From a virus (lineage: Duplodnaviria; Caudoviricetes), in the IMG/VR virus record IMGVR_UViG_3300025652_000072, positions 1 to 60,037 of that record: a DNA stretch of 60,037 nucleotides; one strand, 5' to 3'. Positions 687 through 60,010 of this stretch are shown here, in pieces (the stretch's first letter is position 1; the number at the start of each line of letters is the position of its first letter). Made by a program: the position numbers and the translations under genes. The notes beneath the pieces were generated by a model that was not told the origin of the DNA, did not search any database, and worked only from the letters and a program-made list of their open reading frames with translations.

Positions 687-1193
687 TTACTTGTTCACAA
701 TTAATTTAACGTATGGCGTCCCCCAATACTTACTGCTAGGAGAGTAACCGCCATTTAACAGGGCGAGCAGAACGTTGGGTTTTTTGCGTGAATGCCCGAG
801 CTTAGCACATTGGTTAAGGATAAACCCTAACCGTTTGTCACCATTTATGCCTGTTAAAAACGAAGATTGAATGAAGTGCCGTACACCTCCTTTTTTACCA
901 CCCCATCCAAAGGGTACATCTTCAGGGCTTGGTACAAGGCATTGTATTTCAACGTTGTTTTCGTTGCCACCTGCTTCGGTTCTCACAAAATTGGTAATAT
1001 CATCGTAAGTAAGTTCTTCGCCGTTAAGTAATAACTCAGCAGGAAAGCCAGAAAGTTTGATCTTAGTTGGTTTTTTCTTGGCAACGGCTTTTACTATTTT
1101 TTTAGAGGATGCCTTAGTAGTTTTAGCGGCATCTTTTTTCAAGAAATCTAAAGTTTCCTTATTAATTTGTACTACTTTTGTCATAATATCCAC
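687..1193 (-). CDS. Hypothetical basic protein, paralog of 56546..57037 (likely true start ATG 1184)
   Basis: Shared blocks AGGNxNNV, GVR, LLALLNGG(Y/F)SxSxxxWGxPxVxLxV; AGAAAGG RBS upstream of ATG 1184. Confidence 0.8.
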   Translation of the reverse strand: MDIMTKVVQINKETLDFLKKDAAKTTKASSKKIVKAVAKKKPTKIKLSGFPAELLLNGEELTYDDITNFVRTEAGGNENNVEIQCLVPSPEDVPFGWGGKKGGVRHFIQSSFLTGINGDKRLGFILNQCAKLGHSRKKPNVLLALLNGGYSPSSKYWGTPYVKLIVNK

Positions 1194-6832: not shown

Positions 6833-6974
6833 TACTTTTCACTTTCATAGATAGTTTACATTTACAGCGAGGCCATTTGTTTTTTAAATTACGGAAAGTA
6901 ATTACTTTTTTATACTTTCCACATTCACAAACAGCTTCTACCTCTTTGTCCATGGGGTCGGGGTTATTTATCAT
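6813..6974 (-). CDS. Small Cys-rich (CEC...CKC) protein, ~53 aa; not in the ORF track
   Basis: Manual translation; bridges the gap between 6964..7266 and polA with short overlaps. Confidence 0.45.
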   Translation of the reverse strand: MINNPDPMDKEVEAVCECGKYKKVITFRNLKNKWPRCKCKLSMKVKSNAVSSV

Positions 6975-7266
6975 GCCCTAACATTTCTGCTTCCACTAAT
7001 AATAAGTACCTTCTTAAATCGCGTATGTCGTCTAAAATACCTTCTTCCCTTGGGTCTTTACGAATAGTTTCAAATATATCATAGTTTTCTTTTTTAGCTT
7101 GGTTTTCTATTCTATCCCATTTGCGGGCTAACATCATAAAAGCACCAGTGCCTCCACGTTGTTTCCAACTATTGCCATAACTTTGTTCTGCCACATGCAA
7201 GCCTTCTACATCGGCATGTGCTAAATCGTTTACCTTTGTAAGAATATTACTTAACTCACGTTTCAC
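6964..7266 (-). CDS. Nucleotide-modification-associated MazG-like protein (DUF1599/Nmad1-like)
   Basis: SYGNSWKQRG..G.FMMLARKWDRI...DDIRDLRRYLLL; located within a modification cluster. Confidence 0.7.
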   Translation of the reverse strand: MKRELSNILTKVNDLAHADVEGLHVAEQSYGNSWKQRGGTGAFMMLARKWDRIENQAKKENYDIFETIRKDPREEGILDDIRDLRRYLLLVEAEMLGHDK

Positions 7267-7267
7267 T

Positions 7268-8236
7268 TTACCATCTCCTCATTAGCCACTCTACACAAGC
7301 CTTACGCCATGCTAGGTCTTCAATGTTTTCGGCATGGCGTACTGCTTCATCTATATTTTTTTCCTTCCAAGCACCCCAAGATAAATCCATAGGTGTAAGC
7401 ACTTGATCAAAGTAAGAGTTAGTATATGTATTGGTTTCATTGTTCATCCACCGTTCTAACTCTTTATCAAAACAAGCAGGTTCATCAACCAATGGTTTAG
7501 GGTTGTAATGCCCACTATCACCTAAATGCAGGTAAGGGTCGTAATCGGGTTCAATATTTTTTACTTTTTCTAACGTATCCACGTAAGCGTGTAAGTTATT
7601 ACTAAATTGATAATATGTACCTACCGCGCAATCTATCCTTGCCGCCATATATTCTAACAGTATAGACATATGAACAGCGTTTGCTCCATACGCCCCCCAT
7701 ATCATATCATTGCTCCTATTACATACAGTCATGTTTAACGTGTCGTCACGAACCCAAAACATAATCTGCGTATTGCAGGGATAATCTTTACCATCGTTAT
7801 CTGTAGAAAAATCTTTTGTAGGATCCCACATACCAATAACTGTACGACGATCGTTTTCATAATGAAGCAGACGGTGGATAGCTACTTCTAGTTGATCAAA
7901 GCCGAACCAGTTTTTCCACCTATGTCCATATGCACCGTGGAAGGTTACGCCATCGTCACTGTAATTATTAATTCTGCCATTATACTTAGAAATCCAATCA
8001 ACATCATTTCTACCTGCTAACATCCAAAACGATTCCATTAAATGGAAATAAGGGTTAGCGTCACGCATAGGGTAAAACAATACTCTTTCCCTGCTATGGC
8101 TGTAAGAAGTTACTACAGGACAAGCAAACTCTAATGCTTTACCATTGCGTGTGTCTACCTCAACACCTTTAGTTTCTAATGCCTGTACTGCTAGGTACAA
8201 TGCTTCACTTACATTTCTTGCACTTATATACTGCAT
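7268..8236 (-). CDS. Thymidylate-synthase-fold dUMP hydroxymethylase
   Basis: RDANPYFHLMESFWMLAG, YSDDG..FHGAYGHR, catalytic PC, RSNDMIWGAYGAN (Asn indicates dUMP specificity), NLHAY; adjacent to a 5-hmdU kinase. Confidence 0.85.
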   Translation of the reverse strand: MQYISARNVSEALYLAVQALETKGVEVDTRNGKALEFACPVVTSYSHSRERVLFYPMRDANPYFHLMESFWMLAGRNDVDWISKYNGRINNYSDDGVTFHGAYGHRWKNWFGFDQLEVAIHRLLHYENDRRTVIGMWDPTKDFSTDNDGKDYPCNTQIMFWVRDDTLNMTVCNRSNDMIWGAYGANAVHMSILLEYMAARIDCAVGTYYQFSNNLHAYVDTLEKVKNIEPDYDPYLHLGDSGHYNPKPLVDEPACFDKELERWMNNETNTYTNSYFDQVLTPMDLSWGAWKEKNIDEAVRHAENIEDLAWRKACVEWLMRRW

Positions 8237-8282
8237 TTAAAGCCTTTCTGAGCTCTCTAAGGTTTATAGGGGGGGCTAACTA

Positions 8283-9596
8283 CTAAAAACTAAGTTGAGT
8301 GCCTGTATGGGCGTTAAAATGGGGTGGTATATTGAAAAAGTCTAAGTTTTTGTCACAAGAGTTTTTTAACCCCACACTTGGGACACCTATCGGCATTGTC
8401 ACCCACCTATTAGCATCAGCTATTAAATCTATATACTCTTGTGCTACTGTTTTCATTTCAAACATTTTTAGTAAAGAAATGTTATTTGCACGGATACTTT
8501 CCCACTGATAACGGTTGTTCATGCTATCATTAATTATACTTGCAAACTCTTTAGGTGTAGCTGTATGGGGAACCTCTATAAAATTTTCTCCACCATAAAA
8601 TATCTCGCTATTTTTCATACCTAAATCGGTAGCAACTGGTACAGCACCCATCATCATAGCTTCTACAGTTGTTCTATTAAAATGCGCTCCGTACCCAGAA
8701 TATTTTTTAGACCAACTAGGGTCTATCTGTAACTTACGGTCTTTTAGTATTTCAAGTACATGGCTGTTTGGAATAGTGCCTACATACTCCATACCATTTG
8801 CAAGTGCGACATCCCAAATTTTATTACCGTCTGTATCAAAATACTGTGGCTTACACTTTTCTTTACTGGTCATATACCTGTACTCAATACCTGCACCACC
8901 AATACACTTGGTCACTTTTCTAAGAGGGTTTGAATCATACTCGTCGATGTAAGGTATGGCACGAATAAGTGTATCAACTCGTTTCCACGCTTTAAATACT
9001 TGTATCGCGGCAAACCCCTCTCTACGTTCCCAATCTATTTCAGTAACCGTATTGCTAAGATCAAAAGGGTTTACAATCATTTTCCTAGGTATGTCAAGAT
9101 TTACCGCTGAATGAAAAGCACTTTCATGAACACATACAGCCCCATGAAACCATTTAGAAACCAATAACAAATGAGGGTATAGCTTGGGTAAATTACCGTC
9201 ATGTATAATAGCTATGTTTTTAGTACCATTATTATATAACTCTACCCATTCGTCTACCCCTTTATTATCTTTGTTCAGGGTAGGTACAGGGATGTGCCAA
9301 AGTACAGCATCATACTTACTACAGTTCTCCCTAAACCGTTGCCTTACCCTATCATTTAAATAAGGATATTTGCGTAGGTTAGCCCAACCTTTTGCTTGAT
9401 GGTGACTGTAGCCTGTGCCAACTTTATCATAGTCACCCCCTATTAGTTTAAAACGTTCTTTAATTTCGTGTTTGGGAACAAGCATACAAAAGTCTACCTC
9501 ATGCCCTAATTCTTTTAACCCTTTTGCTAAAAACTCAACATGGTTAATGATACCGCCATAATCTTGTATTTGGTACAAGGTCATTAATATTTTCAT
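8283..9596 (-). CDS. GT-B fold glycosyltransferase, putative DNA-modifying
   Basis: MKILM...GGIINHVEFLAKGLKELGHEVD N-terminus; WKRVDTLIRA; TTVEAMMMGAVPVATDLG. Confidence 0.85.
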   Translation of the reverse strand: MKILMTLYQIQDYGGIINHVEFLAKGLKELGHEVDFCMLVPKHEIKERFKLIGGDYDKVGTGYSHHQAKGWANLRKYPYLNDRVRQRFRENCSKYDAVLWHIPVPTLNKDNKGVDEWVELYNNGTKNIAIIHDGNLPKLYPHLLLVSKWFHGAVCVHESAFHSAVNLDIPRKMIVNPFDLSNTVTEIDWERREGFAAIQVFKAWKRVDTLIRAIPYIDEYDSNPLRKVTKCIGGAGIEYRYMTSKEKCKPQYFDTDGNKIWDVALANGMEYVGTIPNSHVLEILKDRKLQIDPSWSKKYSGYGAHFNRTTVEAMMMGAVPVATDLGMKNSEIFYGGENFIEVPHTATPKEFASIINDSMNNRYQWESIRANNISLLKMFEMKTVAQEYIDLIADANRWVTMPIGVPSVGLKNSCDKNLDFFNIPPHFNAHTGTQLSF

Positions 9597-10507
9597 TGTA
9601 CAACTCCTTGCGGTAAGGGCTCACTGCTCTGTGTAAACTTACTGCGAGGTTTACCTTGGCCTAACCTTACTCGTTCGTACTTATCCCATTCACACAAGCT
9701 ATGCTCTATAGTACGCATATCTACTTGCCCAACAGGAACATGGTCATCTACGGAGAAAGCGGCTAAAGCATTCAGTTGTTTCATTTCTTCGTTGGCTACA
9801 TATTGAGTCATGCTTTTTGTTAAGGGCCTGTCCCAAATTCTATTCAACCCACGTTTTGCTCCAGGACCTGCATTGGCCCATGAGAACCTATCTACGGCGT
9901 TGTTCAAAACAGGTGTGTAGTTTAAATCAGTTACAACTTCGTAAGACATAAACCCACCACCTCCCCAACCTCTGTACTGTGATAACTTTCTGTGGGTAGT
10001 TTGCAAAGATTTAGACATACCTGCGGTAGCGGCAATGTCTCCTACATATTTATATATCGGTTTAAGGAAATGGTCAACAACAACATCTGCTTTAGGTAAT
10101 TTCAACCCTTGGTTTGTAATGATATACGCACCAGTGAAAGTACGCTTACCATCAGCTATCCTGTTTTTTATAATGTTTTTGGTACGCTCAGTGTCCCAAT
10201 CAAATTTGGTTGATGAAAGGGTAACCCAACCATGTTCCTCTGCAAATTCAGTTGTGCCTACCATCCTGAACAAACAACAGTTGAAAATTATTTCACTCCA
10301 GTTTTTATTATCGTGAGGTTTAGTCCAGTTGTTACGCATCCAAAGGGTAACCCTATCGTTTTCACGGAAAGGGTTTGTAAACTTATACTCTTGGAGTATG
10401 GGATCTTTTGTCCATTCAGACCTTGGTACACCCATGTTTCTCCGTTGGTATATGGCGTGTCTTTCATTTATCCAATAGAAAAACCTTTCTACGTTTTCCT
10501 TGTTCAT
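9593..10507 (-). CDS. 5-hmdU DNA kinase (5-HMUDK / aGPT-Pplase1 family)
   Basis: FFYWINERHAIY, WTKDPILQEYKFTNPFRENDR, FTGAYII, GFMSYEVVTDL, GPGAKRGL, IEHSLCEWDKY. Confidence 0.9.
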   Translation of the reverse strand: MNKENVERFFYWINERHAIYQRRNMGVPRSEWTKDPILQEYKFTNPFRENDRVTLWMRNNWTKPHDNKNWSEIIFNCCLFRMVGTTEFAEEHGWVTLSSTKFDWDTERTKNIIKNRIADGKRTFTGAYIITNQGLKLPKADVVVDHFLKPIYKYVGDIAATAGMSKSLQTTHRKLSQYRGWGGGGFMSYEVVTDLNYTPVLNNAVDRFSWANAGPGAKRGLNRIWDRPLTKSMTQYVANEEMKQLNALAAFSVDDHVPVGQVDMRTIEHSLCEWDKYERVRLGQGKPRSKFTQSSEPLPQGVVQ

Positions 10508-11191
10508 TTACTTTTCTCCTAGTGGTTGGAAGTGTGGGTTATCAACTTTTATAGCTCCGGCTTTTACAGCTATCCTAATATCTGTTTTGCCTCCTGGAGC
10601 AGGGTCTAACTTACGCAGGGCAGTTATCGCTTCGCCTACTGTTTGGGAAGCTAGAACAACCTGCATATTACGATAACGGTTTGTGCCTTGTTTAATAGGA
10701 GGCTCGTCCATTAACTTAATAATTTTGCATTCATTGCCCCACCCTTGTTTCACATCTACTATTTTTCTAATGGCATCAAAAGCTTGCCCTACAGTGGGTT
10801 CATCTTTTTCCATTTCATCTAGCTCTAATGTTATTCTAGTATGTGGGTCTACATCTGGTTGCTCTGTAACTACCCCAACGCTTGAAGTACTGCCTTTAAC
10901 AAACCTATTCATTTTTGTTTCCTCTTCTGGTTTCCAATATTTAGCTTTATCATGGGTAAGAACCCAAAAATTTTCTGCAGAACTATGTTTACCAAATGGT
11001 TCACAAACAGAAGCTATTTCCTCTTTTGTAAACAAATGGTTTAAACGGTCTACTGTTTCTTTACCATCAAACACATAAGAACATTCATTAACAGCCTTAC
11101 ATGATTTTACAGCTTTTAAGGTTTTAAATTTATAAAACAAAAACGGAGGCCCATCACTTCCAGGAACTCCGTCACATATTGCATAAAACAT
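10508..11191 (-). CDS. Hypothetical protein at the head of the modification operon (start ATG 11191)
   Basis: AGAAAGGA RBS; stop directly abuts the 5-HMUDK start. Confidence 0.7.
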   Translation of the reverse strand: MFYAICDGVPGSDGPPFLFYKFKTLKAVKSCKAVNECSYVFDGKETVDRLNHLFTKEEIASVCEPFGKHSSAENFWVLTHDKAKYWKPEEETKMNRFVKGSTSSVGVVTEQPDVDPHTRITLELDEMEKDEPTVGQAFDAIRKIVDVKQGWGNECKIIKLMDEPPIKQGTNRYRNMQVVLASQTVGEAITALRKLDPAPGGKTDIRIAVKAGAIKVDNPHFQPLGEK

Positions 11192-11265
11192 TTTTCTTCC
11201 TTTCTTAGAAGAAGTACCAGTGTGTACATTAACGTATACACACTGGTTAGACAACGGCTACTTTA

Positions 11266-12313: not shown

Positions 12314-12613
12314 TTAATGTAATGAAGGTTCAGCGGGTATTTCGCTGTCTGGTATTTCTTGGCTAGGCAAAGCATTAAACTCATCAAAACTAATGTCTAC
12401 CCAACCAACGTGCATTGGACTAAATGCCACTTGTACACGCATCTCTACGTCATTGTGCGGCATACTAAAACAAACAGGTAGCATTGCTTCATCTGGTATT
12501 GTGTTCAACGCATCCTGCAACATGTCACGGTTCAGTGACCTGTTCCTGTTAGCTTGTATTGCGCTTTCGTTGCTCGCAATAAGCTGTTCTTTGGTAAAGT
12601 ACCTTACTATCAT
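12314..12613 (-). CDS. Hypothetical protein
   Basis: AGAAAGG RBS. Confidence 0.7.
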   Translation of the reverse strand: MIVRYFTKEQLIASNESAIQANRNRSLNRDMLQDALNTIPDEAMLPVCFSMPHNDVEMRVQVAFSPMHVGWVDISFDEFNALPSQEIPDSEIPAEPSLH

Positions 12614-37467: not shown

Positions 37468-37472
37468 GTGTA

Positions 37473-46694: not shown

Positions 46695-46721
46695 AAAAAA
46701 ACCCCCTTGCACAAGGGGGTT
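46695..46721 (-). terminator. Rho-independent terminator
   Basis: acccccttg / caagggggt stem with a T-run on the minus strand. Confidence 0.6.
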
Positions 46722-46723
46722 GA

Positions 46724-46739
46724 TGTTTCACGTGAAACA
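46724..46739. promoter_or_regulatory. parS: parS-consensus palindrome TGTTTCACGTGAAACA
   Basis: Perfect 16-bp match to the bacterial chromosomal parS consensus; intergenic. Confidence 0.75.
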
Positions 46740-46755
46740 ATTTTCACGTTTAAAT

Positions 46756-46781
46756 AAAAAAGGGGGGAATAATCCCCCCTT
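46756..46781 (-). terminator. Terminator after the major capsid gene
   Basis: G-run / C-run stem with a T-run on the minus strand. Confidence 0.75.
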
Positions 46782-46785
46782 AATA

Positions 46786-48324: not shown

Positions 48325-48345
48325 GAGTTTTTCTCCTATAAAAGA

Positions 48346-50862: not shown

Positions 50863-51263
50863 TATTTAGAAATCCCCTTGTATTTCTCAAAACTTCTCAA
50901 ACCACCTAACCCTAACATTCCCATCAACACAGGCATCATTTCACTTAGGTCTAACGCAGGGATAGCAACTAAGTAATTAAATTGTGCTAATGTAAACATC
51001 AGTATGGGGTGGATTACATAGTTGTAAGCCATTGCAACACCACATGTCCAACCAATAAATGGACGCCATCCTGCTATAAAAACATTCCTGCTTTGTGCCT
51101 CTGCCTTGTTTATTTCAAGCTGACCTTTGGCAAGCTCTTGGGCATGGCGTTCTGCCATTGTAGATATTTCATGGGCAAGTTGGTTCTTTTGATCTTTATC
51201 TTCTATAAATTTATCAAGCAGTCCTGTAACTGGTTGGACTAAAGAGCCTAATAAATTTATCAT
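50862..51263 (-). CDS. Holin (GTA-type 3TM family)
   Basis: GWRPFIGW, GMLGLGGLRSFEK; adjacent to the endolysin. Confidence 0.8.
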   Translation of the reverse strand: MINLLGSLVQPVTGLLDKFIEDKDQKNQLAHEISTMAERHAQELAKGQLEINKAEAQSRNVFIAGWRPFIGWTCGVAMAYNYVIHPILMFTLAQFNYLVAIPALDLSEMMPVLMGMLGLGGLRSFEKYKGISK

Positions 51264-51538
51264 TTTTTATTCGCCCATGTTGTAAATCCCATATATGCTC
51301 CGCAAAGACTAGCGAGAGCAAAATACATAGAACTAATCAGCCCACTTAGCGCAGTTACTCTTGCTTCAGGAACAATAGGCGTACACATGAGGATTGTAAT
51401 ACAAACCATCAATACAAAAGCGCAAATAGCCATGTACCTCTGCGTTTCTTGTTTATCATGAGCATCGCTTGCCTCTTGTAAAGCGATATCATCTGCATCG
51501 ATGTTACCATCGCCATCCATATCTTTTATAGGGGTCAT
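51260..51538 (-). CDS. Two-TM membrane protein with an EF-hand-like loop
   Basis: DMDGDGNIDADD plus two hydrophobic helices. Confidence 0.6.
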   Translation of the reverse strand: MTPIKDMDGDGNIDADDIALQEASDAHDKQETQRYMAICAFVLMVCITILMCTPIVPEARVTALSGLISSMYFALASLCGAYMGFTTWANKK

Positions 51539-52239: not shown

Positions 52240-54615
52240 TCAACCTCTAGTATTTGCATTTTTCTGTTGTGCTATCCTCGCTCGCATTTGAGCAATATCT
52301 TCTGTACTGTTAATTCTATCTTGACCTAACTGGAACTGTTGCTGTTGCCGTTGTTGGTCAAGTGCTAATTTCCTTTGATCTATTTGTTGGTCTGCCATCA
52401 TTTCCTGTTCACGCAACTGCAACTCTTGCTGTTTTATCTGCACTAATGGGTCTTGGTCTTGTGCAGGTGGTTGTGATTGTTGAAACTGAGCAAATAACTG
52501 TGCTTGCATCTGGGCAACCATAGCTTCCTGTTGCTCTGGCGGTACTTGTTGCCCCTGCATTTGTTGTTGAACAGCAACTTTCGCTTTTAACCCTAAATGC
52601 TCGTATATATGTTTTTCTAACAATATCGCAACAGGTGGTTGTATCTGCGCTACTTTACTATTCATGTATGCTAGATGCACCGCAATATGAGCATCGTGGT
52701 CCTGTTCTGGAAACGCCTGTAATGTACCCTGTCCATTTGCAACATTACTTGTTTCCATGTTTTCCATAGCAGGATCCATGGGACGTTGTTCAGGTTCCGG
52801 TTTTAGTATTTGGTCTATATTATTCACACCTAACGCTTCATACACACGGTGGTATGCCTCATACAAATTGTGCATATCGGGGGCCGCTACCGCTAATTTT
52901 AACTGCTCTTGAGCTAAAACAACCCTTTGTGACATACTAAAGATGTTCGGGTCACTTACTGGTAGTATATCTATCCTACCATCAAAATCTTGGCTTTTTA
53001 TCTGCCCATCTACACCTGTATCGTAAGGGTAAGGCCGTGGATCTTGGGCAAATAACGCTCCTAACATCTTTAATTCATGTTTTAATGACGCATGTAGCCG
53101 TTTATGCACCGCTGAAACTATACGGCTTCCTCGCTCAAGTAACGCAATGGTCGTACCAACTGGCATTTCTTGGTTACCCTGACCAACACCCATATCAGTC
53201 GTACCAATAAAGCGTTGCGCGGCCTCAACAACAAAACCCATAAGCTGAAACAGGGTAGCACTCGGCTCTTTATACGGTAATGGCATCAAAGACGCCTTTA
53301 AATCTCCTCCAGGAACATCAACATCCCTAAATTCTCCAGGACTCAACGGGTTTTGCTCATCTGCAATCCGCAAACCGCGAGCTTTAAACCCTGCGGGCAT
53401 ATTTGCCAACGTTCCTGAGTCAATTAACTGGCGTAAATTAGCCGTTGCCGTACGAGACAAGTTGCCAAGCAAATGTATCAGCCCAAAACCATAAAAACCA
53501 AGTCCTGGAGTAAATTTATACTGCACGAAATGTTGAATTTTATCTTTATTTGGGTCATCTTGTAGGTAATTACGCCTAATTGACAATACATCCCCTGTAT
53601 CTTTACATACAGTTACGATATAAGGCAGTTTTAAACCTGTTTCTTCGTCATTTTCTCCCTTATCTGCATATTCTTCTAGGTCTAAGAAACAATGACATTC
53701 GTACAAAGTAAACTGTTCATCATTATATGTAGGGCTTATGCCTTCTATATCATCATAAGCTGATTGAACTTCATCCGTAGAGGAAGAAGCACTGCTTTCC
53801 CCCTCCATATCCATGTAAAAACCAGAAAGTTGTAACTTCTTCAACTCATTTTGTGAGATTTTTATAACATGTGTTATACGTTCTGCCGACTGTAAGTCCG
53901 TAGCAATGTATGGAACAATCACTTCTTCAGCAGGAACAAACTTACTTACTGGCCTATCTAGCATTTCATCACGATAAACCTTCTTAAACGCACTTCCTGC
54001 CAAACCTAAGTAATAAAGCATCTGGTCAAACTCAGGCTCGTACTCTTCCATTTCATACATTATCTGGTAATTCATGTATTCCTGCACACGTTGAGCCTGT
54101 TGCTCTATCGCAGGAGTAGGCATACCAATAATATTCGCGCGGACAGGGCCTCCACTTGGCAACATCTCCTTATAAGCAGATGCCTGAAACTGTGTAATAG
54201 CCTCGTTCAGTAATGGGTGGATAACACCAGTTGCACCTTCAAACGGTTCCGTACGAGTTTCGTACCGCATACCCAGTAAATCCAAACCCTTTACATAAGT
54301 ATCTTCCCAATCACTACGGCTGTTTTTATCCTCCTCTACAGAAGACGTAACATAACTCGCAACCTCACCTAATGTAGTATCTTTTAAATTTTCCGCTAAA
54401 TTATCGTAAAAGTTTTCTGGCTCCTCACCAAAAACAACCTCTTCCATACCTGTAGTTATTTCTACCCCACCATCATCATCTTCTACAATTTCAACCTCGC
54501 CATCAAAAAACATATCCTGCTGAGCTTGTAGATCCTCCTCTTCAAAACTCATATCCTCTACAGGAGCCTGTATCAACGCCCGATCTACATTATTTACCTT
54601 AGGAGACAATGCCAT
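52240..54615 (-). CDS. Portal protein
   Basis: PFEGATGVIHPLL, GSAFKKVY, GFYGFGLIHL, PYKEPS; follows terL. Confidence 0.9.
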   Translation of the reverse strand: MALSPKVNNVDRALIQAPVEDMSFEEEDLQAQQDMFFDGEVEIVEDDDGGVEITTGMEEVVFGEEPENFYDNLAENLKDTTLGEVASYVTSSVEEDKNSRSDWEDTYVKGLDLLGMRYETRTEPFEGATGVIHPLLNEAITQFQASAYKEMLPSGGPVRANIIGMPTPAIEQQAQRVQEYMNYQIMYEMEEYEPEFDQMLYYLGLAGSAFKKVYRDEMLDRPVSKFVPAEEVIVPYIATDLQSAERITHVIKISQNELKKLQLSGFYMDMEGESSASSSTDEVQSAYDDIEGISPTYNDEQFTLYECHCFLDLEEYADKGENDEETGLKLPYIVTVCKDTGDVLSIRRNYLQDDPNKDKIQHFVQYKFTPGLGFYGFGLIHLLGNLSRTATANLRQLIDSGTLANMPAGFKARGLRIADEQNPLSPGEFRDVDVPGGDLKASLMPLPYKEPSATLFQLMGFVVEAAQRFIGTTDMGVGQGNQEMPVGTTIALLERGSRIVSAVHKRLHASLKHELKMLGALFAQDPRPYPYDTGVDGQIKSQDFDGRIDILPVSDPNIFSMSQRVVLAQEQLKLAVAAPDMHNLYEAYHRVYEALGVNNIDQILKPEPEQRPMDPAMENMETSNVANGQGTLQAFPEQDHDAHIAVHLAYMNSKVAQIQPPVAILLEKHIYEHLGLKAKVAVQQQMQGQQVPPEQQEAMVAQMQAQLFAQFQQSQPPAQDQDPLVQIKQQELQLREQEMMADQQIDQRKLALDQQRQQQQFQLGQDRINSTEDIAQMRARIAQQKNANTRG

Positions 54616-56081
54616 TAATAGTAACTCCTCATTCTAGGGGCAGACTCTTCATCCTCATAATCTTCCGGATGTTGAATAAAACCGCCCTCTCTAAATCTTC
54701 GCAACGCCTGTGTCACCGTATCAACATAATCATCATGCTCTCCGGCAGGAAACGCCGCACACTCCTCAATAACTTCTTCCGACCAACGTGTATCTGGAGC
54801 CCATACTAATCCTGATTCTAGTAAAGGTGCAATAGAATTCACTCTCGTATGTTTATCATTTCCTCTCGACGGGCTGTAATTCTGTACCGGAATGCCCATG
54901 TTCCGCAACTCCTGAGTCAACGGCATACCCGACGCTTTCGCCTCAATCAACACACACTCGGGGTCCCAATACTTATACTCCTCTAACGCCTTACGACGCA
55001 AGTCCGGAAAATCCCATCTGCCTCTCTGCGCATCAACCAATAATATATTCGCAGGAGCACCATCATATGGATAAAAAACACCCCACGTTGTTATAGCACT
55101 AAAATCCGCAGACTCCTTCTTACTATACGCTGTATCATAAGACTGCATCACATAATCTAAATTAGGCAAATCCTCCTTCTTCCACTCCTGCCACCACTCA
55201 CGTTTAAGTATCGCGGCTCCCTCACTCGTCGGGTTCTGCTGCCACTGCGCTTCCCACTTACCTACAGACAAACTTCCCTTAACCGCTAATAAATCTTCTT
55301 GCTTCCAATACTCAGGCCACAACGGTTTATTTGTCTCGGGCATCAAAGCAGGGAACTCCACAACCTCCCACTTATCAGCCAATATATCTCGCGCTTGCTG
55401 TCGCAACAACTTCCCCGTCAAATCGTTTTCTGCCCAACGAGTCATTATAATTACTATACTCCCTCCGGGCTGTAACCTTTGACGTGGCCCAGAAGTATAC
55501 CACTCATACGCATGTTCCAACGCAGTAGGGGACAAAGCATCTTGCTCGGAATGGGGGTCATCGATAATTAACAAATCCGCACCACGGCCCGTCACCGCTC
55601 CACCAACTCCAGCCGCAAAATATTCACCACCCTTAGAAGTTTCCCATCTTCCAGCAGCTTGGCTATCCGCTCGCAACTCCACATCAAATATTCCACGGTA
55701 CTCCTGCGAATTCATCAGGTTTCTCGTCTTACGTCCAAACCTAAACGCCAACTCCGCAGTATGCGTAGTCTGCATTATCTTCAACGTAGGCCTCTTACCC
55801 ATCAACCACGAAGGCAGCAAATAACTTCCAAACTCACTCTTCGTATGTCGGGGGGGCATATTCACAATTAAACGCTTTAAATCACCAGTAGCCAAACGAT
55901 TAAACTTCTCAGCCATAATTCCATGGTGGCGACCATTCACAAACTCAGGCCAAACCATTTTACAATACGTCATAAAATCATTCTGCGCAGCTTCAGTCTT
56001 ACTCAAATAACTCGCACGGTCCAATAACGTAGCAAACTTCTTCAAATGTTCCTCAGGAACATACTCTAAACCACTATCCAT
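54615..56081 (-). CDS. terL: Terminase large subunit
   Basis: NMPPRHTKS, TGRGADLLIIDDP, MTRW, DTA, IEAKASG, HDDYVD. Confidence 0.95.
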   Translation of the reverse strand: MDSGLEYVPEEHLKKFATLLDRASYLSKTEAAQNDFMTYCKMVWPEFVNGRHHGIMAEKFNRLATGDLKRLIVNMPPRHTKSEFGSYLLPSWLMGKRPTLKIMQTTHTAELAFRFGRKTRNLMNSQEYRGIFDVELRADSQAAGRWETSKGGEYFAAGVGGAVTGRGADLLIIDDPHSEQDALSPTALEHAYEWYTSGPRQRLQPGGSIVIIMTRWAENDLTGKLLRQQARDILADKWEVVEFPALMPETNKPLWPEYWKQEDLLAVKGSLSVGKWEAQWQQNPTSEGAAILKREWWQEWKKEDLPNLDYVMQSYDTAYSKKESADFSAITTWGVFYPYDGAPANILLVDAQRGRWDFPDLRRKALEEYKYWDPECVLIEAKASGMPLTQELRNMGIPVQNYSPSRGNDKHTRVNSIAPLLESGLVWAPDTRWSEEVIEECAAFPAGEHDDYVDTVTQALRRFREGGFIQHPEDYEDEESAPRMRSYY

Positions 56082-56087
56082 TATAAA

Positions 56088-56243
56088 CTAATCACTCAAC
56101 TCATTAGCAACCTCTCCTTGGCAACACTCATCTATGTTTTTTCCACAAGCACACTGCAAATGTCCTCCTACATAATGGTTTCCCAAAGGGTTCTTTTCAC
56201 AACCACACTTTTCACAAATTTCAAAATCATTTTCAACCAACAA
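56088..56243 (-). CDS. Small Cys-rich Zn-finger protein, 51 aa, TTG start; not in the ORF track
   Basis: CEKC...GHLQCACGKNIDECCQGE; GAGGAG RBS. Confidence 0.6.
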   Translation of the reverse strand: MLVENDFEICEKCGCEKNPLGNHYVGGHLQCACGKNIDECCQGEVANELSD

Positions 56244-56505
56244 AACATTTCTCCTCAATATTCAATAATTTCTTATATATCGAAAATTTTTCAAGGACAA
56301 TGAACCTATAATCAATAACAACAATAAAGGGGGGTAGGTCAACTGTTTAAGGACTCATATAGTTGACTTTTTGTGAAATGTTTTTGGATCATGTAGAAAT
56401 GTTCAGAACAGGGTAAAGGGTGCTACTAATACCACCCTTTTTGCTCAGGGGGGGCGGGCAAAAACCGTGCCAGTTTTACCGCACCAAATTTTAGGGGTAC
56501 CTTAT

Positions 56506-56534
56506 AAAAAAGGGGCGGGTAAAAAACCCGCCCC
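56506..56534 (-). terminator. Rho-independent terminator of the TC-free gene
   Basis: ggggcgggt / acccgcccc stem with a T6 run on the minus strand. Confidence 0.8.
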
Positions 56535-56545
56535 AAATTAAAACC

Positions 56546-57037
56546 CTACTTTTTAGGGGCCTTGGTTTGTGGCTTAACTACTAGCTGTACTTGTGGTACG
56601 CCCCATGTACTTGCGCTACGGCTAAACCCGCCGTTAAGCAATGCCAGTAAAACAATAGGTTTTACCGCACTTTGGCCGCCGCTTGGTATACCCAACGCGC
56701 CCTTGCTTTTACAGGCGTTTAACCAAGCACCTAATGTTAGCTGGCCATTAAGTGCGTGCCATAACATAGTTTGGCGCACGCCGTATTGCTTGGCATTAAA
56801 ACCACCTAGCGTTTTACTAGGGGCCTTGCCGCCTTTGCCCATTGTAAAACTAGCAAAGGTAACGCCGTTGCATGGTACTATTGCAACGTTGTTAGGGTTG
56901 CCGCCAGCGTGGGTAGCTAGCCATTGGTTTACAGCTGCATAATTAAATGCCCCTGTTTTGGTAAGTAGTGGGCCTTTAAGTGTAGCACCTGTAACAACCG
57001 TGTTACTTGGTGCAGTAGTGGTATTTGCTTGTGCCAT
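56546..57037 (-). CDS. Asp/Glu-free basic protein (163 aa), paralog of 687..1193
   Basis: Own promoter, AAAGGGTT RBS and terminator; homologous blocks to 687..1193. Confidence 0.85.
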   Translation of the reverse strand: MAQANTTTAPSNTVVTGATLKGPLLTKTGAFNYAAVNQWLATHAGGNPNNVAIVPCNGVTFASFTMGKGGKAPSKTLGGFNAKQYGVRQTMLWHALNGQLTLGAWLNACKSKGALGIPSGGQSAVKPIVLLALLNGGFSRSASTWGVPQVQLVVKPQTKAPKK

Positions 57038-57100
57038 TTTTTTAACCCTTTAAATGGTGGGGCCTTGCCCCGTTAACCGCCAGCGGTTGCTGGCATGCCT

Positions 57101-57131
57101 ATTATATAACACCCCATTAAATGTAATACAA
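57101..57131 (-). promoter_or_regulatory. Sigma70-like promoter of the TC-free gene
   Basis: Minus strand TTGTAT...TGTTATATAAT with an AT-rich upstream tract. Confidence 0.55.
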
Positions 57132-57189
57132 CCCCATACATGCACTTTTTTTAATTTATTTTATCACGGTATTTTTGGGCCTTGCCCGC

Positions 57190-57215
57190 GACTTGACTTG
57201 ACTTGACTTGACGTG
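57190..57215. repeat. Tandem pentamer (gactt)x4 plus a degenerate copy
   Basis: gacttgacttgacttgacttgacgtg. Confidence 0.9.
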
Positions 57216-57450
57216 ATATATGTATATACACGCAGATCAGTGACGATCATACATGTACACGCTCTCTCTCGTCGTAATCTTAATCTCAGTATGGGTCGCT
57301 GTAAAACGCCAGTAAACAAACGACAACAAGACAAATCACAAATACCATTGGTCTATACCTTTGCTAGTTAACAATGGCTATTGTATACCCTAGTGCAATG
57401 GTCAGTTGTTGTCTTATGTTGTACTTTTTGCTCTCCTCAATTATTAGTCG

Positions 57451-57500
57451 TCCCCGATCAAGGCCGATCAACGTTGATCAAAGCCGATCGTTATTGATCA
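57451..57500. repeat. Five GATC sites at exact 10-bp spacing
   Basis: GATC at 57456, 57466, 57476, 57486, 57496. Confidence 0.9.
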
Positions 57501-57530
57501 ATATATATAGGACTATCGGTATATTAATCC

Positions 57531-57645
57531 TCAATCATCATCAATCATTCTCTCTCCGTCGTAATCTTAATCTCCGTCGTAATCTCAGTGTGTGTTCGAC
57601 CTGAATCAATCATCATCAATCATTCTCTCGTCGTAATCTTAATCT
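57531..57645. repeat. TC-rich ~40-bp imperfect direct repeats
   Basis: tcaatcatcatcaatcattctctc..cgtcgtaatcttaatct at 57531-57573 and 57606-57645. Confidence 0.85.
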
Positions 57646-58073
57646 TTGTCAGGATCGTCCGAGGATGATAGAATGTGATTGATAACCCCATGCCAATCAA
57701 AAGGGGACTCGCAACTCCAGTCCGGTATCAATGGTTCACTGACCTTGGATTCTCCCATTTTAATCGCACGACCACCCCCAAATATATTTAGGGTAGAGGA
57801 AGAAGGATGATGAACCAAGTTGTAGACTTTGCCTTTATTCATAAAATATCTGGTTTGCCACGCAATTTGGTGAGGGCGTAGCGCGATGTTTTTTAATGAC
57901 TTTAACCTGTGGACCTTCAATTCTAGCCAAAATGCCTGACCATTCAGTATGCCATGCAGGTCAGGGATTCCTGGAGTCGCCCAAGACTCTAAGCGTGTCC
58001 AAAACACGCCTAGGTCTTGCGTTCCTTCTCTTAGTTTATACCAAAGTTTGCTCTCAGGCTTACTTGTTGCGAT
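57639..58073 (-). CDS. VRR-NUC / Holliday-junction-resolvase-like PD-(D/E)xK nuclease; start probably upstream of the track's 58007
   Basis: TRLES.ATPGIPD, FWLELK, LRPHQIAW; in-frame upstream KPESKLW. Confidence 0.75.
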   Translation of the reverse strand: MATSKPESKLWYKLREGTQDLGVFWTRLESWATPGIPDLHGILNGQAFWLELKVHRLKSLKNIALRPHQIAWQTRYFMNKGKVYNLVHHPSSSTLNIFGGGRAIKMGESKVSEPLIPDWSCESPFDWHGVINHILSSSDDPDKD

Positions 58074-58076
58074 ATT

Positions 58077-58616
58077 TCAAACCCCCTGCCAAGCTGACTC
58101 TAACATTGCATAAGGGTTATCATCTATGCCCTTTAACCCAAGCTCGGGCATGTATTGGTTAAAGCTATCGCGGTCATACTCACTTATGGCACAAACCTTG
58201 TGATATGTTTTATCAATGGTAATAACGTATAGGTAATCAATGTCACCATGTATGCCGTTGGTTACCTCATACTTGCCCTCTAACTGCATAGGCTCGTAAT
58301 GTGTGTGGGCGTCCCGTGTTTTGGGCGCAACTAACAAAGTCTGCAACATTTCGTCCCATGCTTTATGTTTAACTAACACGTCAGCATACAAACCTAGTAA
58401 CAGCTTCGGGTCATTTTGCAGTGCTTCAGCTCCTGCTTTGGCCTTGCTTCCTGCAAGCTCTTGGCAAAACGTGGTGTAGTTGTCTGCATACCAACGTATA
58501 GCCTCAGCATATTTTTTTAGCTCAGGCCCCACACTACTAGGGTAACCATCGTAATGTCTGTAAATATACTTAACTTGGTCACCGCACTCTAAAACTATGT
58601 TACATCTTGTACCCAT
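58077..58616 (-). CDS. Hypothetical early protein
   Basis: MGTRCNI..IYRHYDGYP..VG, HGDIDYLY; conserved early leader. Confidence 0.75.
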   Translation of the reverse strand: MGTRCNIVLECGDQVKYIYRHYDGYPSSVGPELKKYAEAIRWYADNYTTFCQELAGSKAKAGAEALQNDPKLLLGLYADVLVKHKAWDEMLQTLLVAPKTRDAHTHYEPMQLEGKYEVTNGIHGDIDYLYVITIDKTYHKVCAISEYDRDSFNQYMPELGLKGIDDNPYAMLESAWQGV

Positions 58617-58662
58617 TTGTCTAACCCTTTCTCGGTTATTTATTAACTATAATTAGTATAGC
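58617..58662 (-). promoter_or_regulatory. Early-gene leader: TGcTATACT extended -10, 18 nt, ACCGAGAAAGGGTT
   Basis: Same spacing as the leaders at 106-176 and 609-674. Confidence 0.6.
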
Positions 58663-58696
58663 AACAGCATTTACATTGAGTAACCTTTTTTATGTC

Positions 58697-59239
58697 TTAT
58701 TTTGTCTTGTCATCCGCTTGGTTTTCTATCAGTACATTGCCGTCAGCAACAGCGGCAAGTGCAGGGAACTCCTTTTGGAGTTTCTGTATTTCTTTCATCA
58801 CTTGCTCCCTGTCCATCTGGTCTATTTTTCCATGCAGTATTTCCTTACGATCAATGTAGAGACCTGCGGCTTGTCCTCGTGATTTTTCAGCGGCAACAGC
58901 TGCGGCGAAGTTACCACCTGTCATTGCTTGGTCTCTTATTTCAGCTAACTTTTTTACATGGCTTTCAAAGCTGACTTCATACTTTTTGGCTAACTCAGCT
59001 TTTAGTTCACCTATTCTCGCTACTACGTTGGGGTAGCGTTGACCATTTAATAATTGTGATGCAATGGCGTGTGCAGATTTTACTGAGTATCCTGCCCTGA
59101 CTGCGGCCTCTGTTTGGCTGATGTCCTCACAAACATACAGTCTTGCAAACTCTTCTTGCTTGGGTGTTATGTTCTTTTCTGTTCGTGGGTTGGCTACAAT
59201 TTCAAGCGTTGGCTTGTGAGTAGCTTTGGCTAAAACCAT
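58697..59239 (-). CDS. terS: Terminase small subunit
   Basis: TPKQEEFARLY, TEAAVRAGYS..SA...ASQLL, AAVAAEKSRG..GLY. Confidence 0.85.
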   Translation of the reverse strand: MVLAKATHKPTLEIVANPRTEKNITPKQEEFARLYVCEDISQTEAAVRAGYSVKSAHAIASQLLNGQRYPNVVARIGELKAELAKKYEVSFESHVKKLAEIRDQAMTGGNFAAAVAAEKSRGQAAGLYIDRKEILHGKIDQMDREQVMKEIQKLQKEFPALAAVADGNVLIENQADDKTK

Positions 59240-59262
59240 GTTGATGTCCTCTTTGTTTTGCT

Positions 59263-59487
59263 ACTTTGCTATAATAGGAAGAATTACGAAAAGTTACTAG
59301 TCTTAAAAAATTCCAAATTAATCGCGCGTACCGAGAAAGTTACTGATTAATTGAACCATTGACCATGTACAATATCTCAATACCCCTGCTAACTCATTGT
59401 TTATATGTGTATAGTCATATATCGTATATTTTCAAATGTTAAAAAACCATTTCATCGTAAATCGTATTTACCCCTATTATACAAAGT
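59263..59487. repeat. Inverted-repeat-bounded non-coding element, copy 2
   Basis: Same ordered blocks as 17858-18015 plus ~68 extra bp in the middle. Confidence 0.85.
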
Positions 59488-59616
59488 TGCCTTTATTGAG
59501 GGTTTTTGTTGACTATTTTAAGGCCTTTGTGATAATCTCAAAGTATTTATGTAGGGGTACATACCCCTTGGTAGTTTGAGTGTTACTGGTGCGTCGTTAA
59601 GTTGAGATGTGCGGGT

Positions 59617-59653: not shown

Positions 59654-60010
59654 TTATAGGTTCAGTATTGGTTTTACTGCGTCAACGGCGACAGCGCATT
59701 GGTAAGGCGTCGTTATAATGTGCATTTGGCTGATGTAGTCACGGCTTGGTATATTTTTTGCGTCAAGCACTAGTGTAACTGGGGTGTCAACACGTTGGTA
59801 TACCATCACGGTAACAATGCCCCCAAAAGCGTGGCTCGTTATTACTAGCCTTGTGTCATTGTCAATATGGTGTATGTATGCGTCCATACCCTCGTGTGCT
59901 GGTACTGGGTCACTGTTTGGGCCACCAAGCAGGTTGTCATGGTGGTTGTCAGTGTATGGTGCTAACCCTGCGTCAGTAATAAACTTATCAAAAAGTGGTT
60001 GTTGTGTCAT
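59654..60010 (-). CDS. Hypothetical early protein (118 aa)
   Basis: Conserved AACCGAGAAAGGGTT leader. Confidence 0.75.
   Translation of the reverse strand: MTQQPLFDKFITDAGLAPYTDNHHDNLLGGPNSDPVPAHEGMDAYIHHIDNDTRLVITSHAFGGIVTVMVYQRVDTPVTLVLDAKNIPSRDYISQMHIITTPYQCAVAVDAVKPILNL

What the first reader, a model, noticed from the sequence alone, without database searches (positions are those of the whole stretch)
56446..57164. A whole transcription unit with no TC/GA dinucleotide: candidate modification-free 'bootstrap' island
Seen: 718 consecutive dinucleotide steps contain no TC and no GA, so there is no 5'-TC-3' on either strand. Only two TCs occur in ~56408-57189. The gap spans the promoter, RBS, CDS and terminator. 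The 163-aa protein has no Asp or Glu (all GAN codons), no TCN Ser codons, and a TAG stop. Its RBS is TTTAAAGGGTT where sister leaders have CGAGAAAGGGTT, and the candidate -35 is TTGTAT rather than TTGACA. Assuming a conservative 8% per-step TC+GA rate, the chance is about 0.92^718, or ~1e-26. Non-coding flanks and the non-coding strand are also purged, so the selection acts on DNA rather than protein. Inference: the phage's own hmU-kinase/glycosyltransferase system places a bulky adduct on T in TC, which would impede host RNA polymerase. One first-expressed gene would then be kept unmodified, and its product would enable expression of the rest. An alternative is escape from a host TC-targeting defence such as DarT-type thymidine ADP-ribosylation or a TC-specific deaminase.
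Basis: partly seen in the sequence, partly recalled or inferred. Interest (0 to 1): 0.97.

Follow-up and report, generated by a model that had tools for sequence, protein, structure and literature searches.

The report
Phage gene cassette lacking TC/GA
A marine phage and most of its relatives keep one small gene, with its promoter and terminator, entirely free of the two-letter DNA step TC/GA, so its protein has no aspartate or glutamate; something in the infected cell must read that step, most likely the phage's own thymine modification.

Summary
Window 56446-57164 has no TC or GA for 719 nt; the next longest gap is 66, and the largest in 300 simulations was 125. It holds a promoter-like site, leader, a 163-aa gene on the minus strand without Asp or Glu, and a terminator. 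A normal paralogue lies at 687-1193.

Selection maintains it. Of 22 near-complete genomes of this phage clade, 19 carry a TC/GA-free or nearly free unit, always encoding this protein superfamily. Of 90 family representatives, 42 have at most one acidic residue.

All 22 clade genomes carry a 5-hmdU DNA kinase. Four related phages without the kinase lack both the family and the island.

Published work supports a TG/TC context and reduced transcription of kinase-treated DNA.

Three facts count against it. Three kinase-bearing relatives and two cultured kinase phages (M6, PhiJL001) have no island. The ban also splits into two separable strand-specific rules, which a symmetric DNA mark does not predict.

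Enzymes that act on single-stranded DNA or on mRNA remain live rivals. This scan has noted similar TC/GA-free islands on other phage DNA.

The parts
56446..57164 (.). TC/GA-free island: 719 nt with no TC or GA on either strand
56546..57037 (-). Island gene: 163 aa, no Asp or Glu, TAG stop, net basic. It belongs to a virus-only protein family with no Pfam or PHROG match.
   Evidence: Differences from homologues concentrate at third codon positions (77 of 118 against L029).
57101..57131 (-). Sigma-70-like promoter inside the island: GGGG-TTGTAT (57131-57126), 17-nt spacer, TATATA(AT) (57108-57101). It is inferred from sequence; no transcription start has been mapped.
   Evidence: The same GGGG-TTKWWA-N16-17-TATAAT layout appears in relatives. 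The consensus scan did not list it.
57038..57094 (-). 5' leader with two short hairpins (57094-57079 and 57071-57059) and the GA-free ribosome-binding site AAAGGG (57051-57046)
   Evidence: read by eye, not folded
56512..56534 (-). Intrinsic terminator hairpin (9 pairs, 8 G-C, then a T run). The void continues about 60 nt beyond it, to a C-rich run that ends in ...CCCCCCCTGA.
687..1193 (-). Unconstrained paralogue of the island protein: 168 aa, 36% identity, E=1e-18, with 17 TC, 25 GA and 15 Asp+Glu
6964..11254 (-). Thymidine-modification cluster: unknown 248-aa gene (10508-11254), 5-hmdU DNA kinase (9593-10507), GT-B glycosyltransferase (8283-9596), thymidylate-synthase-like gene (7268-8236), 100-aa gene (6964-7266)
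58077..58616 (-). Neighbouring gene with a coding-strand-only TC ban: 2 TC against 15.1 expected, GA 32 against 36.4
59654..60010 (-). A second gene with a coding-strand-only TC ban: 2 TC against 14.8 expected, GA 18 against 19.2
12314..12613 (-). A third gene with a coding-strand-only TC ban: 3 TC against 13.3 expected, GA 21 against 22.0

Best explanation
The island is a self-contained expression cassette (promoter, leader, one gene, terminator) from which selection has removed the DNA step 5'-TC-3'/5'-GA-3' on both strands. The cost was every aspartate and glutamate codon.

The most likely reason is that TC is the context in which the phage's own 5-hmdU-kinase pathway hypermodifies thymine. 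The cassette would then stay plain (hmU-only) DNA. Host RNA polymerase could still recognise and transcribe it while the rest of the genome carries the bulky mark, whether on the incoming virion DNA or late in infection.

The product is a small basic protein whose normal paralogue lies elsewhere in the genome. It probably works on DNA and is functionally tied to the modification system.

Shown: the void, its conservation under selection, its restriction to this protein family, and its co-occurrence with the kinase clade.

Inferred: the TC context, the effect on transcription, the timing of expression, and the protein's role.
For: 1. The void spans 719 nt and includes untranscribed promoter DNA. 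In 13 of 13 fully free lineages inspected, the void starts 6-72 nt upstream of the -35-like hexamer. Unpurged relatives have 2-4 TC/GA within the same promoter.

2. Selection maintains it. One third of all single-base changes in the island would create TC/GA. The window and L029 differ by 66 synonymous changes and none creates one (P about 1e-12).

3. It is conserved. All 13 loci found with the protein have it. So do 19 of 22 near-complete clade genomes, always in the same superfamily. Of 90 family representatives of at least 100 aa, 20 have no Asp or Glu and 22 have one.

4. A kinase, glycosyltransferase and thymidylate-synthase-like cluster is present. The kinase is in 8 of 8 relatives that were found through TerL and are at least 90% complete. 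Four related phages without the kinase have no family member and a maximum gap of 65-83.

5. Published passages I read give further support. Hypermodified T lies mainly at TG/TC in M6, ViI and PhiW-14 (PMC6449724) and at TG, less at TC, in SH-Ab 15599 (PMC13458397). hmU templates raise E. coli RNA polymerase output to 350%. Treatment with 5-HMUDK cuts it to 10% of that, and bulky C5 groups abolish it (PMC6457204).

6. As unchecked leads only: earlier notes of this scan report TC/GA-free islands in other thymine-modifying phages.
Against: 1. G006 and G010 have the same syntenic cluster (kinase, glycosyltransferase and thymidylate-synthase-like gene) but no void; G011 has the kinase but not this glycosyltransferase or the 248-aa gene, and only a decayed void.

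2. Two cultured phages with a kinase homologue, M6 and PhiJL001, have no dinucleotide-free island of any kind.

3. The ban splits into two strand-specific rules. Three genes of the window and four of G005 ban TC on the coding strand only and keep GA (template-strand TC) at expectation. Lineages such as L061 keep GA out while TC returns: 11 new TC to 1 new GA, against 47% TC expected (p=0.0017). A symmetric double-strand mark does not predict this, and a template-strand block predicts the opposite of the first rule.

4. Work with T7 RNA polymerase found little effect of such marks outside the promoter (PMC11550810, passages).

5. At codon junctions, T|C is depleted genome-wide (o/e 0.59-0.88) and C|C is enriched. 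That looks like avoidance of a harmful site rather than of a protective one.

6. No modification has been measured for this phage, and no isolate exists.
Confidence: 0.4

Rival explanations
1. Immunity to an enzyme that reads a dinucleotide on single-stranded nucleic acid. The coding-strand TC ban would protect the non-template DNA strand or the mRNA (UC). The coding-strand GA ban would protect the mRNA (GA) or the template strand. Known precedents are host abortive-infection ADP-ribosyltransferases: CmdT modifies A in GA of mRNA and blocks translation, and DarT modifies T in TNTC of single-stranded DNA. The island gene would be the one product that must still be made under such attack, for example a counter-defence factor.
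For: The two rules are separable and strand-specific. In the coding-strand-only genes the ban covers the transcribed leader, while the -35 of gene 58077..58616 keeps a TC. Purged, half-purged and normal states are interspersed on the tree, with at least 5 changes forced. The cassette is hypervariable on a conserved backbone: G005 is 98-99% identical to the window in most genes but only 39% in the island protein. T|C is depleted at codon junctions genome-wide. The GA-free ribosome-binding site fits CmdT's expected hit on Shine-Dalgarno GA (PMC11618068, passages). DarT's TNTC motif contains TC (PMC5179494, passages).
Against: The ban is near-universal (19 of 22 genomes) across phages with 36-49% G+C, which probably infect different hosts. 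That argues for an agent intrinsic to the phage. Promoter DNA upstream of the likely transcription start is also purged. No known enzyme reads plain TC or UC. No host is known, so no defence system can be checked. The island protein resembles no known ADP-ribosyl hydrolase or other anti-defence fold.
Confidence: 0.25
2. The protein family itself reads the TC step or the modified TC step, for example as a DNA-binding protein that silences, coats or marks such DNA. Its own gene lacks the target so that it escapes its own action and stays on.
For: The void is always on a member of this one superfamily, even between branches that BLAST barely links. The family and the kinase cluster occur together and are absent together. 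The protein is basic, and its model gives weak winged-helix-like matches (Z about 3, best Z 4.5). Direct TC-containing repeats such as (TCAAG)4-5, (TCA)12 and TCGCG lie just upstream of the promoter.
Against: The TC repeats also occur in lineages without the ban (L073, L080). L061 differs from the fully free L062 by 9 non-synonymous base differences yet carries 11 TC in the coding sequence and one more in the leader. Unrelated neighbouring genes show the one-strand ban. The structural match is too weak to claim DNA binding.
Confidence: 0.12
3. A mutational footprint rather than selection: a TC-specific cytosine deaminase, like APOBEC3 in animal viruses, converted TC to TT and GA to AA in this stretch.
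For: TC/GA is the APOBEC3-type target, and such footprints deplete NTC codons and G|A junctions (PMC7449416, passages). NTC codons and T|C and G|A junctions are somewhat depleted here.
Against: The island is richer in G+C (47%) than the genome (40%). At junctions T|C is replaced by C|C (o/e 1.7-1.8), the opposite of C-to-T decay. The protein is conserved, with an excess of third-position changes. T|C at junctions, where C-to-T would change the amino acid, is the most depleted class.
Confidence: 0.02

Closest known systems
Context-specific thymidine hypermodification through 5-hmdU DNA kinase (Pseudomonas phage M6, Salmonella ViI, Delftia PhiW-14, Acinetobacter SH-Ab 15599)
   Same: The window has the kinase (PF18723, E=1.9e-50), a thymidylate-synthase-like gene and a transferase gene beside polA. 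In the characterised phages the modified thymines lie in a dinucleotide context, TG and/or TC (PMC6449724 and PMC13458397, passages).
   Different: No modification has been measured here. The partner enzyme is a GT-B glycosyltransferase rather than a clear amino-acid:DNA transferase; the ADDT hit is below its cut-off. None of the passages I read mentions a gene kept free of the context, and M6 itself has no such island.
Recognition-motif avoidance in phage genomes: restriction-site avoidance, and the early anti-restriction gene in the first-entering DNA of T7 (recalled, not from a call)
   Same: A short DNA word is removed by selection where it would be harmful. The cassette is self-contained and sits in a hypervariable slot among small accessory genes.
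   Different: The word here is only two letters. It is banned completely in one transcription unit and only mildly genome-wide. The ban overrides protein chemistry, leaving no Asp or Glu. No enzyme with that specificity is known in phage or host.
Dinucleotide- or tetranucleotide-specific nucleic-acid ADP-ribosyltransferases of anti-phage toxin-antitoxin systems: CmdT (GA in mRNA) and DarT (TNTC in single-stranded DNA)
   Same: They read exactly GA, or a motif containing TC, on single strands. A transcript or strand without the word would be immune (PMC11618068 and PMC5179494, passages).
   Different: No such system can be tied to this phage's unknown host. Promoter DNA is purged too. The passages I read report no immune, word-free genes.
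APOBEC3 TC footprint in animal DNA viruses
   Same: The same dinucleotide is involved, with both strands affected and depletion that depends on codon position (PMC7449416, passages).
   Different: There the footprint is genome-wide, partial and driven by C-to-T editing. Here it is total, local and selective, with T replaced by C.
Other dinucleotide-free islands noted by this scan (TC/GA in other thymine-modifying phages; GG/CC, CA/TG and CT in others)
   Same: The anatomy is the same: one small gene unit with its control DNA, amino acids sacrificed, and relatives that keep the rule. One note also reports a both-strand ban in the first gene and a message-strand-only ban in the next genes.
   Different: These are unchecked AI notes on other DNA. 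I tested none of them.

Membership tests
5-hmdU-kinase thymidine hypermodification system | 5-hmdU DNA kinase gene | tested here: met
   PF18723 E=1.9e-50, 172 bits against a cut-off of 25; confirmed by a genome search
5-hmdU-kinase thymidine hypermodification system | dUMP hydroxymethylase to make hmdUTP | tested here: inconclusive
   The Thymidylat_synt hit (E=1.9e-22) shows the fold only. Hydroxymethylase and methylase cannot be told apart here.
5-hmdU-kinase thymidine hypermodification system | Transferase that replaces the phosphate (amino-acid:DNA transferase / Pplase type) | tested here: inconclusive
   There is only a sub-threshold ADDT hit (18 bits against a cut-off of 26) inside the kinase ORF. 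A GT-B glycosyltransferase and an unknown 248-aa gene are adjacent. The slot holds other genes in G005 and G011.
5-hmdU-kinase thymidine hypermodification system | Hypermodified thymine in virion DNA, in a defined dinucleotide context | not testable with these tools
   There is no isolate and no native-DNA signal data. The RNA and DNA runs available were contigs only.
Selective motif avoidance | Word far below expectation and kept so through sequence divergence | tested here: met
   0 observed against about 68-90 expected. No TC/GA is created in 38-67 synonymous differences per pair. 19 of 22 genomes show it.
Selective motif avoidance | An identified enzyme whose target is the avoided word | not testable with these tools
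   The kinase's specificity and the host are unknown. The N6/N4 methylase is not the agent: it is absent from 7 of 8 complete relatives, 5 of which keep a nearly TC/GA-free unit.
Immunity to CmdT-/DarT-type enzymes | Transcript or exposed strand lacks the enzyme's word | tested here: met
   There is no GA or UC in the CDS, the leader or the ribosome-binding site.
Immunity to CmdT-/DarT-type enzymes | Host carries such a system and the ban stops at the transcript ends | tested here: inconclusive
   The host is unknown. The void reaches 6-72 nt upstream of the -35-like hexamer in 13 of 13 lineages, but no transcription start has been mapped.
Winged-helix DNA-binding proteins | Clear structural match to a winged-helix domain | tested here: inconclusive
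   The model has pLDDT 76.9 and pTM 0.73. Foldseek gave nothing at E<=0.001. With VIA-align the best Z was 4.5, with many winged-helix rows at Z 2.6-3.4.
Deaminase (APOBEC-like) mutational footprint | C-to-T and G-to-A decay, with an AT-enriched product | tested here: not met
   The island has 47% G+C against 40% for the genome. C|C is enriched where T|C is lost. The frame is under purifying selection.

The most novel reading that the evidence does not exclude
The phage encodes an epigenetic on/off logic in its own sequence. Its thymine hypermodification at TC shuts DNA off for host RNA polymerase. One regulator gene is written without the kinase's dinucleotide context, so it is the only unit expressible from fully decorated DNA. 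Its product, one of a two-paralogue family found so far only in this kinase-bearing clade and absent from four relatives that lack the kinase, reads or adapts to hypermodified DNA and lets the programme start or continue. The same trick, with other dinucleotides, would recur in unrelated modified phages.
Probability: 0.2. Interest if true: 0.9.

Novelty: new variant of a known kind. Interest (0 to 1): 0.8.

Why it matters
A complete ban on a two-letter DNA step, held for hundreds of bases over deep divergence and paid for with two amino acids, is a sequence-level readout of an activity nobody has measured.

If TC is the context of the thymine hypermodification, the island gives the specificity of an uncharacterised kinase from sequence alone. 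It would also show that phages must spare some DNA from their own protective marks, and it would name a protein family tied to modified DNA.

Either way, the natural series of fully purged, half-purged, one-strand-purged and relaxed alleles, together with an unconstrained paralogue in the same genome, makes the question directly testable.

Tried and rejected
**Function of the protein.** Pfam and PHROGs gave no hit for the island protein or its paralogue. tblastn against 50,697 phage records found nothing for either. The ESM Atlas gave only unnamed viral clusters. Foldseek against PDB and BFVD found nothing at E<=0.001. VIA-align gave Z<=4.5.

**Expression.** The look-up of sequencing runs listed 14 DNA runs holding half of the words or more and 6 RNA runs holding 0.08-0.11 of them. 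I laid four RNA runs, all as contigs. They gave sparse pieces, mostly of relatives 90-95% alike, with two short pieces inside the island in one run. There is no information on level, start or end, so this says nothing about early or high expression.

**The N6/N4 methylase (19519-20166) as the agent.** Rejected. It occurs only in G000, G005 and G002, which form one clade, while nearly free islands exist in genomes without it.

**A phage accessory gene that tracks the island state.** No window gene is present in the purged genomes G005, G008 and G012 and absent from the unpurged G006 and G010. The modification clusters are syntenic in both groups.

**Another banned dinucleotide in the unpurged relatives.** None was found.

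**Link between genome-wide T|C junction depletion and island state.** It looked clean with 7 genomes. With 22 it is weak: the three genomes with no island or only a decayed one have 0.79, 0.81 and 0.88, against 0.59-0.85 for the rest.

**General purge of intergenic or promoter DNA in the window.** Not seen: the rate is 0.094 against 0.095 genome-wide.

**Contig ends inside the island as physical genome ends.** Rejected. Long contigs are permuted and run through the island. A hypervariable cassette on a conserved backbone explains the assembly breaks better.

**Print search.** Searches listed no paper that describes a gene unit kept free of a dinucleotide in a phage.

Full report
**1. Observation.**
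The window is a complete 60,037-bp viral record. On its + strand TC occurs at 56445 and again at 57164, with no TC or GA between: a gap of 719 nt. The next longest gap is 66. In 300 first-order Markov simulations of the window the longest gap averaged 82, and the largest was 125. From the island's own base composition about 90 TC+GA are expected. Every other dinucleotide is present, and the only missing trinucleotides are the 16 that contain TC or GA. No other symmetric dinucleotide pair has a comparable gap. The island has 47% G+C, against 40% for the window.

**2. Anatomy.**
All parts lie on the minus strand and read as one unit:
- an A/T-rich stretch;
- GGGG-TTGTAT, then 17 nt, then TATATA(AT);
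- a leader of about 50 nt with two short hairpins;
- the GA-free ribosome-binding site AAAGGG;
- a 163-aa ORF (57037 to 56546) with a TAG stop;
- a strong intrinsic terminator (56534-56512);
- about 60 further TC/GA-free bases, ending in a C-rich run.

The protein has no Asp, no Glu and no TCN serine. The ORF is a real gene. It has 38 homologues in metagenomes, 37 of them without any acidic residue. Differences from those homologues pile up at third codon positions, for example 77 of 118 against L029.

The unit lies between the small terminase gene (58697-59239; PHROG terminase small subunit, E=4.8e-18) and the large terminase gene (54615-56081). Upstream of it is a repeat-rich non-coding region.

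**3. A normal twin.**
ORF 687-1193 is a paralogue: 36% identity, E=1e-18. It has 17 TC, 25 GA and 15 Asp+Glu, all at or near expectation. The fold therefore does not require the absence of acidic residues.

**4. Conservation and selection.**
All 13 viral loci found with the protein carry the void at the gene, 709-862 nt long where complete.

Around 80 TerL-related loci the family typically occurs twice upstream of TerL. The distal copy is always normal, with TC 18-33, GA 18-33 and Asp+Glu 10-15. The proximal copy ranges from fully free to normal.

I then assembled 22 near-complete genomes: the window, 8 found through TerL and 13 found through the kinase. The longest TC/GA-free gap exceeds 200 nt in 19 of the 22 and 530 nt in 9. 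The exceptions are G006 and G010 (58 nt each) and G011 (167 nt).

In 21 of the 22 the unit encodes a member of one superfamily, including a second branch that only weak profile hits and BLAST chains connect. The 221-aa protein of G038 could not be linked to it.

A profile search of 1.84 billion representatives found only 105 family clusters. Of the 90 that are at least 100 aa long, 20 have no Asp or Glu and 22 have one. The acid-free state is therefore old and widespread.

One third of all possible single-base changes in the island would create TC or GA. The 38-67 synonymous differences that separate the window's gene from six free homologues created none, giving P between 1e-7 and 1e-12 per pair.

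On a quick tree the purged, nearly purged and normal proximal genes are interspersed, and well-supported branches force at least 5 changes of state. G005 is 98-99% identical to the window in most genes, yet its equally free island protein is only 39% identical. The slot is a swapped, hypervariable cassette. That also explains why short contigs often break there.

**5. Two separable strand rules.**
The ban is not a single symmetric rule.

*Rule A, no TC on the coding strand.* This also holds in genes outside the family, while GA stays at expectation. The comparison is with 2000 resamplings of synonymous codons:

| Genome | Gene | TC observed / expected | GA observed / expected |
|---|---|---|---|
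| window | 58077-58616 | 2 / 15.1 | 32 / 36.4 |
| window | 59654-60010 | 2 / 14.8 | 18 / 19.2 |
| window | 12314-12613 | 3 / 13.3 | 21 / 22.0 |
| G005 | 46442-46933 | 1 / 14.3 | 34 / 37.1 |
| G005 | 47974-48417 | 1 / 20.6 | 21 / 22.7 |
| G005 | 50463-50984 | 4 / 17.5 | 37 / 32.7 |

In every one of these genes, 0 of 2000 resamplings reached a TC count as low as observed. A fourth G005 gene, 51004-51501, has TC 6 against 16.4 (also 0 of 2000), but its GA is low as well: 28 against 35.3, reached by 10 of 2000.

*Rule B, no GA on the coding strand.* This persists in lineages where rule A has lapsed. L061 is 96% identical to the fully free L062 but has gained 11 TC and 1 GA in the CDS. Synonymous opportunities would give 47% TC (p=0.0017). 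L079/L080, L095, G037 and G041 show 8/6, 7, 2 and 1 TC with 0 GA.

Conversely, many proximal genes have 0 TC and only 1-5 GA, which sit in Asp/Glu codons in all lineages but L072 (5 GA, 4 Asp+Glu). Examples are L059, L066, L070, L088, G031, G034 and G036.

In fully free lineages even the ribosome-binding site and the promoter are purged. In nearly free ones a GA survives in the ribosome-binding site or the -35.

**6. Is it DNA or RNA?**
In 13 of 13 fully free lineages the void begins 6-72 nt upstream of the conserved -35-like hexamer. Unpurged relatives have 2-4 TC/GA within the same promoter. This argues that untranscribed DNA is under the rule, but no transcription start has been mapped.

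The strand-specific rules argue that transcription, the exposed strand or the mRNA matters. Direct TC-containing repeats just upstream, such as (TCAAG)n and (TCA)12, occur with and without the ban and so are not tied to it. Intergenic DNA in general is not depleted.

**7. Link to thymine modification.**
The window encodes the following:
- a thymidylate-synthase-like protein;
- a 5-hmdU DNA kinase;
- a GT-B glycosyltransferase;
- an unknown 248-aa protein;
- DUF932, an HD-domain nucleotidase and PolA;
- an N6/N4 methylase.

The kinase is in 8 of 8 TerL-found relatives that are at least 90% complete. The other 13 genomes were found through the kinase, so they carry it by construction.

The nearest other relatives have TerL 59-62% identical. 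These are HTVC027P (whole record searched for the kinase, 13 kb scanned for gaps), and HTVC023P, 023Pt_psg01 and DSL-LC04 (first 50 kb of each). They have no kinase, no family member and a maximum gap of 65-83.

Against a simple rule:
- G006 and G010 share the same syntenic cluster yet lack the void; G011, whose void has decayed, has the kinase but not this glycosyltransferase or the 248-aa gene.
- The transferase slot varies without relation to the void.
- The methylase is confined to one clade.
- The cultured kinase phages M6 and PhiJL001 have no dinucleotide-free island.

**8. What is known in print (passages read).**
- Hypermodified thymines lie mainly at TG/TC in M6, ViI and PhiW-14 (PMC6449724), and at TG, less at TC, in SH-Ab 15599 (PMC13458397).
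- The pathway acts after replication on hmU in sequence-specific contexts (PMC8989533).
- hmU templates raise E. coli RNA polymerase output to 350%. Treatment with 5-HMUDK lowers it to 10% of that, and bulky C5 groups abolish it (PMC6457204).
- With T7 RNA polymerase the effects lie mostly in the promoter (PMC11550810).
- CmdT ADP-ribosylates A in GA of mRNA and blocks translation (PMC11618068).
- DarT modifies T in TNTC of single-stranded DNA (PMC5179494).
- APOBEC3 leaves TC footprints in animal viruses (PMC7449416).
- Six searches found no description of a gene unit kept free of a dinucleotide in a phage.
- This scan's earlier notes, unchecked, report TC/GA-free islands in other thymine-modifying phages and other banned dinucleotides elsewhere.

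**9. Genome-wide signal.**
At codon junctions T|C is depleted (o/e 0.59-0.88 across the 22 genomes) and C|C is enriched, up to 1.78. T has therefore been replaced by C. Together with the island's higher G+C, this rules out C-to-T hypermutation as the cause. The relation between this depletion and the island state is weak in the full sample.

**10. Verdict.**
The best single explanation, at about 0.4, is that the cassette avoids the TC context of the phage's own thymine hypermodification and so remains usable by host RNA polymerase.

An enzyme that reads TC/UC and GA on exposed single strands or on mRNA is the main rival, at about 0.25. It accounts better for the two strand rules.

A self-reading protein (0.12) and a mutational footprint (0.02) follow.

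The function of the protein is unknown. It is basic and virus-only, it was found only in the kinase-bearing clade (absent from the four relatives without the kinase), and its model is at most faintly winged-helix-like.

Noticed in passing
window 57190-57216 (minus-strand sense); also L023, L029, L081, L082, L019, L073, L080, L088: Tandem short repeats that each contain TC on the gene-sense strand lie directly upstream of the cassette promoter: (TCAAG)4-5, (TCA)12, TCGCG and TCCCA. They occur whether or not the gene is purged.
   Followed up: partly
window 57451-57500: Five GATC sites at 10-bp spacing lie in non-coding DNA, inside a repeat-rich region (57250-57650) with several copies of a GAGATTAAGATTACGACG-like motif. 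This looks like an origin or another protein-binding array.
   Followed up: no
window 3240-3415; G005 54576-54751; G011 21104-21279: A 175-nt stretch has no CC or GG, the longest such gap in each of three genomes. It may be a conserved element with a different banned step.
   Followed up: no
window 56080-56264: Contigs of relatives in two RNA runs skip these 185 nt, which hold the 56-aa Cys-rich ORF 56088-56258. This small gene between the island and TerL is therefore an indel among strains.
   Followed up: no
window 19519-20166 (+): The N6/N4 DNA methylase occurs only in the window's own clade (G000, G005, G002). It is absent from 24 of the 26 related records searched (no N6/N4-methylase match), including 7 of the 8 that are at least 90% complete.
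   Followed up: yes
window 8283-9596; G005 435-1439; G011 35813-37677: The gene slot next to the kinase holds a GT-B glycosyltransferase in five genomes. It holds an unrelated 334-aa gene in G005 and two other genes (364 and 246 aa) in G011. The final modification probably differs between close relatives.
   Followed up: partly
G012 29-460 and 58614-59042; G030 58944-59603 plus 1-711: Some relatives carry two purged units. G012 has two nearly free family genes plus a normal one. In G030 the void runs across the contig ends for about 1.37 kb and holds two acid-free ORFs.
   Followed up: partly
downstream of the cassette in all lineages (window about 56446-56460): The void ends at a conserved C-rich run followed by TGA or GAGA(C)GA and a hairpin, even where the island proteins are only 30-40% identical. 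This is a conserved boundary element of unknown role, possibly a Rho-utilisation-like site or the start of the TerL control region.
   Followed up: no
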